A stretch of 64,000 bases of DNA from Tortispora ganteri (Eukaryota): contig PPNB01000008.1 in NCBI GenBank assembly GCA_003707115.1, positions 1-64,000 of the forward strand. The letters run 5' to 3'. Numbering within the stretch: the first letter of the stretch is position 1; each line of letters opens with the position of its first letter. Below, in pieces: positions 21,079-41,076 of this stretch. The notes under the pieces were generated by a model. It saw nothing but the letters and a program-made list of their open reading frames with translations. It did not search any database and had not been told where the DNA came from. Both the position numbers and the translations under genes were made by a program.

Positions 21079-21659
21079 ATGACTCGTACATCAGTTCTTA
21101 GCGACGCTCTTAAGAGCATCCACAACGCCGAAAAGATGGGAAAGCGTCAGGTTTTGATTCGACCCTCTTCTAAGGTTATCATCAAGTTTTTGACTGTCAT
21201 GCAGAAGCACGGTAAGTAGAATATTGTACATTTTCGAGTCGATAACTGGATGTGGTATGACAATGATACTTCTGTCTTTTAATGGCTCGATAGATTAATT
21301 TGCAAGATACTTACACGGCACCTAAGTGATATAATCTTTGGTTGCTGTTTAAATGTCTTGTACACTCATACTGAACTAAAAATCACTAACACTTTATAGG
21401 CTACATTGGTGAATTTGAAGAAATTGATGACCATCGTTCTGGCAAGATCGTTATCCAACTGAACGGCCGCCTCAACAAGTGCGGTGTCATTTCTCCGCGT
21501 TTCAATATCAGACTCGGCGATATTGAAAAGTGGGTCACTAACCTTCTCCCTGCTCGTCAATATGGTTACATCATATTGACCACCTCTGCTGGTATCATGG
21601 ATCACGAAGAGGCTCGTCGTAAGCACGTCTCTGGAAAGATCCTTGGTTATGTCTATTAA
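21079..21659 (+). CDS. RPS22: 40S ribosomal protein uS8/S22; exons 21079-21211 and 21400-21659
   Basis: [62 protein letters not shown]...GKILGYVY, 130 aa. Intron GTAAGT...CACTAAC...TAG. Confidence 0.97.
21233..21367 (+). ncRNA. SNR44: Box H/ACA snoRNA snR44 in RPS22 intron 2
   Basis: Hairpin, H box (AGATTA 21292), hairpin, ACA (21362). Pocket 1 CGATAACT/TTTAATG fits 18S CAUUAAA-U-C-AGUUAUCG (Psi106). Pocket 2 CTTACA/TTTAAA fits 25S UUUAAA-U-A-UGUAAG (Psi1056). Same host intron as in S. cerevisiae RPS22B. Confidence 0.9.
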
Positions 21660-38152: not shown

Positions 38153-39139
38153 ATGTCTTCAATAGTTGTACAGTCACAGCCTTCCATTCCTTTAATATCA
38201 CATAATTTGCCTGCACCTGAGCCGGAACATTGTCCAGGGCCCGAGTCGGAACAGGCAGGTACCGCAGACTCTTGCGCTGGATGTCCGAATCAGACAATCT
38301 GTGCTTCCAAATTGCCGGTAGGGCCTGACCCCGACATGCCCGCTATAAAGGCACGACTTCAGAATATAAAGCATAAACTGCTAGTACTGTCCGGTAAAGG
38401 TGGTGTTGGAAAGTCTACATTCACAAGCATGCTAGGCTGGGCTTTTGCCGCCGACGAAAATCTTGAAGTCGGCATCATGGACATAGACATGTGCGGGCCC
38501 TCAATGCCTCGTATGATGGGGGCAGAAAATGAAAAAATTCATACTTCAAATTCTGGTTGGAGCCCAGTATATGTTGCAGACAATTTGGGCATGATGTCTA
38601 TTGGGTTTATGCTTCCTAATGCCGACGACGCTGTCATCTGGCGTGGGGCGAAGAAGAACGGTCTAATAAAACAGTTTCTCAAAGATGTTGATTGGGGAAC
38701 TCTTGATTACTTAGTTGTCGATACTCCACCTGGAACTTCTGACGAGCATTTGTCTGTAAACCAGTGCTTAAAGGAATCCGGTATAGATGGCGCTATAATT
38801 GTAACTACTCCTCAAGAAGTGTCTATTCTTGATGTGAGAAAAGAATTAGACTTTTGTCGCAAAGCAGGTATAAAAGTTTTGGGAATTATTGAGAACATGT
38901 CCGGATTCGTATGTCCTAACTGCAAAGGCGAGTCTTTCATATTTGCGCCTACCACTGGTGGTGGTAAGGCTTTGGCTGACGAGTATAAAGTGCCATTCTT
39001 AGGATCGGTACCTCTAGATCCTAGAATAGGGAAGTCATGTGATATTGGTGATTCTTTCTTAGACGAATATCCGGACTCTCCTGCTTCTAAAGCCATATTA
39101 GAGGTCATCAACAAAGTTCGCTCCCAGGTTGAGAGTTGA
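38153..39139 (+). CDS. NBP35: Cytosolic Fe-S assembly P-loop NTPase
   Basis: N-terminal [11 protein letters not shown]...[40 protein letters not shown]. Confidence 0.97.
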
Positions 39140-39215
39140 ACAACGCATCTATAACAGCATTTCATGACATTTTGCATATGCTAGCATATTAAGGTAAGTT
39201 CACACTGAGTACACT

Positions 39216-39298
39216 GGACTGAATGATTATAGACATTTACTGAGGATGTGCATGCAGGACATATTGTTAATAAGGAATTCTTCGTTTATGACAAGCCA
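39216..39298 (+). ncRNA. SNR57: Box C/D snoRNA snR57 (18S Gm1572)
   Basis: C-like ATGATTA at 39223, D' CTGA at 39240. Guide AGGAATTCTTCGTT before D box ATGA (39288) pairs 18S AACGAGGAAUUCCU, with the +5 position on G1572. Confidence 0.88.
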
Positions 39299-39377
39299 AT
39301 CTGGAAACTCATACATTAAATATGCTTTTCAGCCACTAACTTTTGACTAGTAAGTTACTATTTTTCTCTTTAGTGTT

Positions 39378-39572: not shown

Positions 39573-39662
39573 AATGTTAAAATGATGAAGAAACTTTAAC
39601 CAGTTCTGCTACTGAGCGTTCTTGAAGATAAACCAAACTTACCAAAACTTCTGATTGACATT
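39573..39662 (+). ncRNA. SNR61: Box C/D snoRNA snR61 (25S Am1133)
   Basis: ATGATGA at 39582. Guide CCAGTTCTGCT before D' CTGA (39612) pairs 25S AGCAGAACUGG. D box at 39651; terminal stem AATGTTAA/TTGACATT. Confidence 0.92.
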
Positions 39663-39725
39663 TTCTTAAAGAAACCGAAACAAATTAACTAACGTGCAAC
39701 AGTGTAAGTCATTTAATTATTCGAC

Positions 39726-39864
39726 GACAGTTTGAATGAAGAAAACTAAGTTATTATCCATTCAACGATTGCGTTCTACATATTTTTATTCTGACAGGGT
39801 TTTCTTGTCTTTATGAGAATTATGAATGCGAAAGGACTTAAATCGGCTTGCTGAACAAACTGTC
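39726..39864 (+). ncRNA. Unassigned box C/D snoRNA-like RNA
   Basis: 9-bp terminal stem GACAGTTTG/CAAACTGTC, C-like ATGAAGA at 39736, CTGA at 39791 and 39851. It lies in its own intron, like the three neighbouring snoRNAs. Confidence 0.7.
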
Positions 39865-40078
39865 TCTTTCTATATTACTATTTACTAACTGCCAGGTTTT
39901 AATTGAGTATACAGGTTTATAACATTTTTATTATTGCATAAAAATCTATAGAATGTGACTTTCTGTGTATTAAAATTTATTTTTATCTTTGCAAACCTCT
40001 ATTATCATTAATACCTTAGGATGAAAATTAATAAGAAATTGCCTGGTGGCCGACTGGTCACAGGCCTAGTTGGGTTAG

Positions 40079-40152
40079 GGTTCTGTGGTGTAGTTGGTTA
40101 TCACGTCTCGTTCACACCGAGGAGGTCTCGCGTTCGAACCGCGGCAGAATCA
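40079..40152 (+). tRNA. tRNA-Val(CAC)
   Basis: Acceptor GGTTCTG/CAGAATC, D-arm TAGTTGG, anticodon arm TCTCG-TTCACAC-CGAGG, T-loop GTTCGAA, and a downstream T-run terminator. Confidence 0.95.
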
Positions 40153-40286: not shown

Positions 40287-40308
40287 TAGGGTTTTACCCT
40301 AACGTGAC
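40287..40308 (+). promoter_or_regulatory. Paired Tbf1-type sites with a degenerate E-box in the RPL1 promoter
   Basis: TAGGGTTTTACCCTAA (inverted pair) overlapping AACGTGAC. Confidence 0.55.
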
Positions 40309-40425
40309 TGTGCGTTGGGAGATACTCAATAACCACTAACATGCACATCGAATCAAGAATACTTTTCCACTACACATATTACGGATTTACCAACGATATA
40401 TATTCGATTTGGGAGGTAGTTAAAA

Positions 40426-41076
40426 ATGTCTAAACTCTCTACCGCATCAGTCCGTAGCAATGTTCAAGAATTATTAGAGGCTTCTAATAAGAAGAAGCGT
40501 AATTTCCTTGAGACCATTGAACTTCAAATTGGTCTTAAGAATTACGATCCTCAAAGAGACAAACGTTTCTCTGGAACTGTCAAACTTCCTTTAGTTCCTC
40601 GTCCTAACATGAGCATCTGCATTTTTGGTGACGCTCACGACGTTGAGCGTGCGCGTTCTATTGGTGTTGATGCCATGTCTGTTGATGACCTCAAGAAGTT
40701 GAACAAGAACAAAAAGTTGATCAAGAAGCTCGCCAAGAAGTACAACGCTTTTGTTGCCTCTGAGACTCTTATCAAGCAGGTTCCCCGTCTCCTTGGTCCT
40801 CAGCTCTCCAAGGCCGGTAAGTTTCCTACCCCTGTTTCTCACTCTGACGATTTGTACCAGAAGATTCAGGAGGTCAAATCCACCGTTAAGTTCCAGTTGA
40901 AGAAGGTTTTGTGTCTCGCTGTTGCTGTCGGTAATGTTGAAATGACCGAAGATGAGATTGTTACTCAAATCATGATCGCCTCTAACTTCTTGGTTTCGTT
41001 ACTTAAGAAACACTGGCAAAACATCGGATCTCTTACTATTAAGTCCACTATGGGCCCTGGTATCCGCATCTACTAA
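40426..41076 (+). CDS. RPL1: 60S ribosomal protein uL1
   Basis: [49 protein letters not shown]. Confidence 0.98.

What the first reader, a model, noticed from the sequence alone, without database searches (positions are those of the whole stretch)
39726..39864. Fourth, unassigned C/D snoRNA appended to the snR57/55/61 cluster
Seen: an element of about 139 nt with a perfect 9-bp terminal stem, C-like ATGAAGA, two CTGA boxes and an internal GACAGGG/TCTTGTC stem, in its own canonical intron. From memory of yeast rRNA I could not place a clean guide of 10 nt or more at either D box. Only partial complementarities were noted: AACTAAG to 18S CUUAGUU near the acetylated C1280 helix, GGACTTAAATCGGC to the 18S GUUGAUUACGUCC region, and TTGCGTTCT to 5.8S AGAACGCAG. 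Inference: an orphan, chaperone-type or acetylation-guide-like snoRNA that is not part of the S. cerevisiae cluster.
Basis: partly seen in the sequence, partly recalled or inferred. Interest (0 to 1): 0.7.

Follow-up and report, generated by a model that had tools for sequence, protein, structure and literature searches.

The report
Compact fungal SNORD17-like methylation guide RNA
This is a small guide RNA, a shortened relative of a Neurospora RNA long listed as having no known target, and it most likely directs one methyl group onto a ribosomal RNA position that is methylated in humans and in a mould but not in baker's or fission yeast.

Summary
The element is real: an intronic box C/D snoRNA gene after snR61, with no Rfam match. 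It is not an acetylation guide. It shares its 5' and 3' blocks with the Neurospora orphan Nc CD53. The same RNA follows snR61 in 69 of 85 metagenomic loci with enough flank (51 of 65 distinct; control 1 of 170). The invariant 8-mer after box C pairs with 25S rRNA. The true D' box is ACGA (39765-68), not the inner CTGA. The D'+5 rule gives own 25S U2210, equivalent to S. cerevisiae U2314 and human Psi-m3797, the SNORD17 target. Chaetomium thermophilum carries Psi-m at the equivalent base 2277; S. pombe has plain Psi. Best reading (0.8): a compact CD53-family 2'-O-methylation guide that works like SNORD17. It is 119 nt from C to D, against about 190-280 in the homologues. Expression and methylation in this organism are untested, and the guide is only 8-9 bp. 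Canzler 2018 had already listed this site as CD_53's weak best guess. I found no paper linking CD53 to SNORD17 or to this cluster. The scan's earlier notes held nothing similar.

The parts
39704..39895 (+). Fourth intron of the snR57-snR55-snR61 host transcript (GTAAGT ... ACTAAC 39884-89 ... CAG), preceded by a 1-nt exon at 39703
   Evidence: sequence; splicing itself not observed
39726..39864 (+). CD53-family box C/D snoRNA gene with 9-bp terminal stem (39726-34/39856-64)
39736..39742 (+). Box C (ATGAAGA, one mismatch to consensus)
   Evidence: same position as box C in homologues
39756..39764 (+). D' guide, 9 bp to own 25S 2206-2214; fifth base from D' (39760) pairs with U2210
   Evidence: 8-mer invariant in 31 of 31 rows of A1 (rows were chosen on this 8-mer)
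39765..39768 (+). Box D' (ACGA, non-canonical)
   Evidence: in 51 distinct homologous loci: ACGA 17, ATGA 17, ACTA 7, CTGA 6, other 4
39769..39832 (+). Single long hairpin between D' and C'; contains the inner CTGA and a 15-nt stretch (39790-39804) complementary to own 25S 2462-2476
39833..39839 (+). Probable box C' (AGGACTT, degenerate)
   Evidence: position matches the C'-like motif of homologues; assignment inferred
39844..39854 (+). Conserved YGGCTT block and box D (CTGA 39851-54)
   Evidence: motif in 23 of 24 homologues and in Nc CD53
39217..39297 (+). snR57 (cluster member 1)
   Evidence: Rfam 72 bits
39381..39456 (+). snR55 (cluster member 2)
   Evidence: Rfam 45.7 bits, E 1.7e-05, below cut-off
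39577..39657 (+). snR61 (cluster member 3)
   Evidence: Rfam 64.9 bits

Best explanation
A compact member of the fungal Nc CD53 box C/D family that works like vertebrate SNORD17. It is spliced out of the fourth intron of the snR57-snR55-snR61 host RNA and trimmed (inferred from the splice signals and from known intronic snoRNA processing). It binds the C/D core proteins (inferred). Its 8-9 nt guide before a degenerate D' box pairs with 25S rRNA so that fibrillarin methylates the ribose of U2210, the base that equals S. cerevisiae U2314 (inferred from the D'+5 rule). If the usual H/ACA guide also acts, the product is Psi-m, as in human and C. thermophilum. Shown here: anatomy, homology, synteny and complementarity. 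Not shown: expression, binding or methylation in this organism.
For: Exact 15-nt block after box C and a matching pre-D block shared with Nc CD53 (compared by eye). Same RNA within 300 nt after snR61 in 69 of 85 loci, control 1 of 170. The guide 8-mer stays fixed while neighbouring bases, including D' itself, vary. An HMM built from 24 homologues without the window gives two hits in 64 kb, both in the element and in order (E 0.019 and 1.3). The box C-guide-D' pattern occurs once in the 9.6-Mb genome, at this element (reversed control 0). The target 8-mer occurs once in own rRNA, 36 nt after the m5C2278-equivalent. The same offset gives human Psi-m3797 (m5C3761), the SNORD17 target, and C. thermophilum Ym2277 (m5C2241; row). 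The Rfam SNORD17 consensus has the same box C, spacer, AUCCauuC, one base, CuGA layout, and SNORD17 was the only family hit over one homologue (14.6 bits, E 0.17). Three related organisms span the element without a listed gap; one has at most 10-15 changes in 233 nt, against 25.5 expected at spacer rate (P 0.0002-0.013).
Against: The guide is 8-9 bp. Alone that is chance-level (69 of 150 shuffles reach 10 Watson-Crick pairs somewhere), and its best site leads the next by only 0.2 kcal/mol. C, D' and C' boxes are all degenerate. The body does not align with the homologues: model R1 matches only the 5' block (E 0.15, next hit 0.19). Length is 119 nt C to D, against 200-300 nt given for CD_53. 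Rfam SNORD17 does not find it; of 10 homologous loci scanned, only one gave a SNORD17 hit, at E 8.4. Canzler et al. found no unambiguous target for CD_53 (ICI 0.71). I did not check that C. thermophilum itself encodes CD53, and I saw only the table row for Ym2277; that paper warns that Psi can mimic Um in RiboMethSeq.
Confidence: 0.8

Rival explanations
1. The RNA binds the same 25S segment mainly as a folding chaperone, as snR190 does, and does not methylate or does so poorly. The degenerate D' and the extra antisense stretch at the hairpin tip serve pre-60S assembly.
For: Degenerate boxes. A 15-bp match (two G-U, -26.3 kcal/mol) of 39790-39804 to own 25S 2462-2476, reached by 1 of 150 shuffles. 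snR190 is a precedent for a guide-like sequence without methylation.
Against: The one-base spacing between guide and D' is kept across homologues and points to a base reported as Psi-m. The 15-nt stretch is absent from 24 of 24 homologues and is partly paired in the predicted hairpin. A separate C/D-like element lies before U14, where snR190 is expected.
Confidence: 0.1
2. A retained but decaying copy: the guide is present, but the shortened RNA no longer directs methylation in this lineage, on the way to the loss seen in other yeasts.
For: About half the usual length. Box C mismatch. Pre-D spacing one base shorter than in most homologues. The three snR57-bearing metagenomic loci with enough flank (L040, L054, L067) lack the element.
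Against: Low substitution count and no listed gaps in relatives, intact guide, strong hairpin, intact splice signals.
Confidence: 0.06
3. An snR4/snR45-type guide for 18S cytidine acetylation.
For: 7-bp match of 39744-50 to 18S 1272-78 beside the h34 CCG. No Rfam snR4 match elsewhere in the genome, with only 32 of 303 candidates scored.
Against: In snR4 the first guide precedes box C and the second follows C'; here the match follows box C and no second guide was found. The motif is in 1 of 24 homologues. RF01244 does not hit the element.
Confidence: 0.03

Closest known systems
Neurospora crassa Nc CD53 (EU780977; family CD_53 of Canzler et al. 2018, PMC5824354)
   Same: Box C, short spacer, identical 15-nt guide and D' block, long structured insert, similar pre-D block. 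Nc CD53 lies on the same chromosome as N. crassa snR55 and snR61. Canzler's weak best target, alignment position 25S-3500, is the position that paper also gives for the snR86 pseudouridine.
   Different: 119 nt C to D against 212 nt (200-300 for the family). One A+T-rich hairpin instead of a branched G+C-rich body. Clearly intronic here, listed as intergenic and orphan in N. crassa. Here the cluster also keeps snR57, which filamentous ascomycetes lost.
Vertebrate SNORD17 (RF00567; 237 nt; target 28S U3797)
   Same: Same 5' layout and guide letters, same target base by offset, long insert after D'.
   Different: Canonical CUGA D' in SNORD17, ACGA here. No Rfam match. Different length, body and host gene. 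Common descent against convergence on the same target is not resolved.
Fungal snoRNA cluster II (snR57-snR55-snR61; PMC3596301, PMC5033589)
   Same: Same order, one snoRNA per intron, nested splice site between introns 1 and 2.
   Different: Described with three members in the passages read; here and in most sampled fungal loci a CD53-type RNA follows snR61.
snR4 / snR45 acetylation guides (PMC5464676)
   Same: Longer than typical C/D RNAs, degenerate D', helical insert between D' and C'.
   Different: No guide before box C, no bipartite pairing around an 18S CCG; the conserved guide abuts D'.

Membership tests
Box C/D snoRNA | Box C near the 5' end, box D near the 3' end, terminal stem | tested here: met
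   C with one mismatch, D canonical, 9-bp stem
Box C/D snoRNA | Stable RNA bound by the core proteins | not testable with these tools
   needs RNA data or pull-down; the N. crassa relative was cloned and Northern-detected
Nc CD53 / CD_53 | Box C, then invariant AUCCAUUC, one base, degenerate D' | tested here: met
Nc CD53 / CD_53 | C'-like motif, A-rich linker and YGGCUU block before box D | tested here: met
   spacing to D one base shorter than in most homologues
Nc CD53 / CD_53 | Position directly after snR61 | tested here: met
   as in 69 of 85 metagenomic loci; adjacency in N. crassa itself not checked
Nc CD53 / CD_53 | Length 200-300 nt with the branched body of the filamentous-type members (descriptive property, hence filed as a variant) | tested here: not met
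   119 nt C to D; body does not align
SNORD17 (RF00567) | Guide AUCCAUUC before D' selecting the U3797-equivalent | tested here: met
SNORD17 (RF00567) | Covariance-model score of at least 45 bits | tested here: not met
   no hit on the element; 14.6 bits on homologue L079. Not filed as a member; it works like one
SNORD17 (RF00567) | Methylation of the target depends on the RNA | not testable with these tools
   Psi-m at the equivalent base is reported for C. thermophilum, without a guide named in what I read
snR4/snR45 acetylation guides | Guide GS1 before box C and GS2 after C', flanking an 18S CCG | tested here: not met
snR4/snR45 acetylation guides | Match to Rfam snR4 (RF01244) | tested here: not met
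   snR45 was covered only by the all-family scans
snR190 (RF01249) | Rfam match and position before U14 | tested here: not met
   no hit on the element; another C/D-like element sits before U14

The most novel reading that the evidence does not exclude
CD53 is the fungal orthologue of SNORD17 and the unrecognised fourth member of the ancestral ascomycete cluster II, lost with the methyl group in S. cerevisiae and S. pombe. The compact form here has also gained a second antisense element at its hairpin tip (39790-39804) that grips 25S next to the peptidyl-transferase loop, making it a combined guide and chaperone. The probability given is for the whole statement; the orthology and cluster part alone I put at about 0.55.
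Probability: 0.1. Interest if true: 0.65.

Novelty: new variant of a known kind. Interest (0 to 1): 0.42.

Why it matters
It gives a testable function to one of the few fungal C/D families still listed as orphan. It supplies a candidate guide for the Psi-m2277 recently mapped near the peptidyl-transferase centre in C. thermophilum. It also suggests why the two model yeasts have plain Psi at a base that is Psi-m in humans. Neurospora and Chaetomium would be genetically tractable models for the SNORD17 modification, which baker's and fission yeast cannot provide. The half-length version shows which parts of this unusually long snoRNA are dispensable. The mechanism itself is ordinary C/D-guided methylation.

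Tried and rejected
Rfam scans of the element at three stringencies found nothing credible. Genome searches with snR4, SNORD17 and snR190 models did not hit it; each scored only about 30 of 300-350 candidates. Sequencing runs: no RNA holder listed. The table of differences in relatives was cut at 39723 (40 of 90 rows), so letters inside the element were not seen, and run X2 covered only the first 51 bases. The inner CTGA as D' gives only weak, G-U-rich duplexes (best -9.3 kcal/mol). A bipartite match to the 18S 5' domain (39729-40 with 287-298, 39747-57 with 248-258) was dropped: it overlaps box C and the stem, and the motif of its second half is in 0 of 24 homologues. The YGGCUU block as a D guide to 18S (own 1386-93, best duplex -11.4) was not accepted because its spacing to D differs between the window and most homologues; pairing back to the bases after box C is an untested alternative. 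A sequence-only model (R1) could not score the element as a whole. Nc CD55 (137 nt, orphan, intronic) shows no resemblance by eye. Papers without bearing: PMC12848939, PMC12309372 (its CD_531 is unrelated), PMC8351944, PMC8789840, PMC6984369 (term searches only) and PMC3116282 (supplement list only). Earlier scan notes: nothing by sequence or place, one unrelated note by words.

Full report
Observation. The sequence features are present as described: a 9-bp terminal stem (39726-34/39856-64), a C-like box at 39736-42, CTGA at 39791 and 39851, and an intron from GTAAGT at 39704 to CAG at 39893-95 with the branch motif at 39884-89. A 1-nt exon separates it from the snR61 intron. Rfam finds snR57, snR55 (below cut-off) and snR61 upstream but nothing credible on the element. 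The + strand folds better than shuffles (z -2.65; the - strand -1.04), mainly through one hairpin at 39769-39832 (z -4.86). It is single-copy.

Organism. It is a fungus with a 9.6-Mb assembly. The neighbouring uL1 scores highest against entries 8c3a, 6uz7, 5it7 and 3j6x (372-384 bits) and lower against 8i9r (364); that these are budding yeasts and Chaetomium is recalled, not from the call. The cluster keeps snR57, which filamentous ascomycetes lost (PMC3596301, passages). I therefore infer a budding yeast, without placing it further.

Own rRNA. I took the rDNA from the own genome and removed four 18S and six 25S insertions in scripts. The scan recovered the guides of snR57, snR55 and snR61 as controls. 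No match of 10 bp or more abuts either CTGA of the element. snR4 has its first guide before box C and the second after C' (PMC5464676, parts 1-3 of 7 and supplement S3), which the element does not reproduce.

Family. The supplement of Liu et al. 2009 (PMC2780460; part 2 of 6, passages, supplement hits) prints Nc CD53, a 212-nt RNA that was cloned, Northern-detected and called orphan and intergenic. By eye it shares an exact 15-nt block after box C and a similar block before box D with the element. A pattern scan for fungal-type snR61 in metagenomes gave 93 loci. Of the 85 with at least 300 nt downstream, 69 carry a C-like box followed by ATCCATTC (51 of 65 distinct); the 8-mer occurred once in 170 control stretches. 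One of the 51, L068, was anchored on a wrong 8-mer in that tally but has a proper copy further on. The 14 distinct negatives include the three snR57-bearing loci with enough flank; an HMM found no full-length copy in the 16 negative loci given to it, and did in the 6 doubtful positives. The taxonomy of the loci was not determined; most lack an snR57 motif, as filamentous ascomycetes do. Alignments of 30 and 24 of the 44 distinct homologues show the layout: box C, about 9-10 nt, invariant 8-mer, one variable base, D' (ACGA 17, ATGA 17, ACTA 7, CTGA 6, other 4 of 51), a long paired body with many two-sided changes (33 of 43 predicted pairs), a C'-like motif, YGGCTT, and box D. A branch motif with a 3' site follows box D in 33 of 45 rows (the rows include the window and three with a wrong D box), so most look intronic. 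An HMM from homologues alone finds only the element's two end blocks in the 64-kb window (E 0.019, 1.3). The box C-guide-D' pattern is unique in the genome. The body does not align, and the element is 119 nt from C to D against about 190-280.

Close relatives. Contigs of three other organisms span the element without a listed gap. The difference table was cut at 39723. For run X3, 37 changes fall in 338 spacer bases and 3 in 238 bases of the known snoRNAs; at most 10-15 remain for the 233 bases that include the element and 94 bases of flank, against 25.5 expected (P 0.0002-0.013). This is indirect evidence of constraint.

Target. The 8-mer, with the next A, pairs with own 25S 2206-2214 and its complement occurs once in the rRNAs. 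The fifth base before ACGA pairs with U2210, 36 nt after the m5C2278-equivalent. The same offset gives S. cerevisiae 2314 and S. pombe 2402, which is plain Psi at 97.7% (PMC4605285 supplement rows). It gives human 3797, which is Psi-m at 100% (PMC6182160 table) and the listed target of SNORD17 (PMC10835520 table row). [quoted passage not shown] The Rfam SNORD17 consensus starts with the same layout, and SNORD17 was the only family hit over homologue L079, far below cut-off. A duplex of 7-8 bp is stated to be the minimum for methylation. The pairing alone is weak evidence; the case rests on invariance, fixed spacing and the independent modification map.

What is known. Canzler et al. 2018 (outline and passages; electronic supplement not seen) kept CD_53 without an unambiguous target, gave 25S-3500 as the best guess (ICI 0.71), used the same position for the snR86 pseudouridine, and noted lengths of 200-300 nt. 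So the site was anticipated but not accepted. Searches for a link between CD53 and SNORD17, for CD53 in cluster II, or for a guide of Psi-m2277 found none; the library lacks most subscription papers. Cluster II is described with three members in the passages read.

Unexplained. The hairpin tip 39790-39804 is complementary over 15 bp to own 25S 2462-2476 (-26.3 kcal/mol) and more weakly near 2296 (-17.8). One of 150 shuffles does as well, a test chosen after seeing the match. The motif is absent from 24 of 24 homologues and partly paired in the hairpin. It is either chance or a lineage-specific second contact. The role of the conserved YGGCTT block is also open.

Verdict. A real, constrained snoRNA gene; a half-length variant of the known CD53 family; most likely an ordinary 2'-O-methylation guide for the U2314-equivalent that works like SNORD17 without meeting that family's Rfam test. 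The value lies in assigning a function to an orphan family and in extending cluster II, not in a new mechanism. Interest 0.42.

Noticed in passing
L001:1503-1535 (18S 3' end, minus strand; G000:C1034): Helix 45 of the organism's 18S differs from the usual sequence: the CCG motif of the ac4C1773-equivalent reads CUG, with matching changes on the other arm and an altered loop (the usual sequence is recalled). One contig only; may mean loss of this acetylation site or an assembly error.
   Followed up: no
L001 and L004 (rDNA, G000:C1034): Four insertions in 18S and six in 25S (290-443 nt in 25S, all ending in G); three 25S insertions match Rfam group I introns.
   Followed up: partly
window 38153-39194: The cluster's first 5' splice site lies 55 nt after the stop of an NBP35-like P-loop NTPase ORF (PF10609), so the snoRNAs may be hosted in that gene's 3' UTR. 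GGGTTAGGG at 38060-68 precedes the ORF (Tbf1-like site; label recalled).
   Followed up: no
window 39193-39355: The G of intron 1's 3' site is also the first base of intron 2's 5' site, the nested splicing described for this cluster in Candida.
   Followed up: partly
window 40079-40152 and 40287-40312: tRNA-Val(CAC); TTAGGG-type repeats and a Homol-D-like motif (labels recalled) upstream of the uL1 gene at 40426-41076.
   Followed up: no
window 21232-21367: snR44 H/ACA match, 37.2 bits.
   Followed up: no
L100:1282-1401 (G000:C557): A C/D-like element in an intron just before U14, where snR190 is expected; the RF01249 search did not report it.
   Followed up: partly
PMC2780460 supplement, Nc CD52: Nc CD52, published as a tRNA guide, has AACUA before a stem and box C, as snR4 has; it may be the Neurospora snR4.
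   Followed up: no
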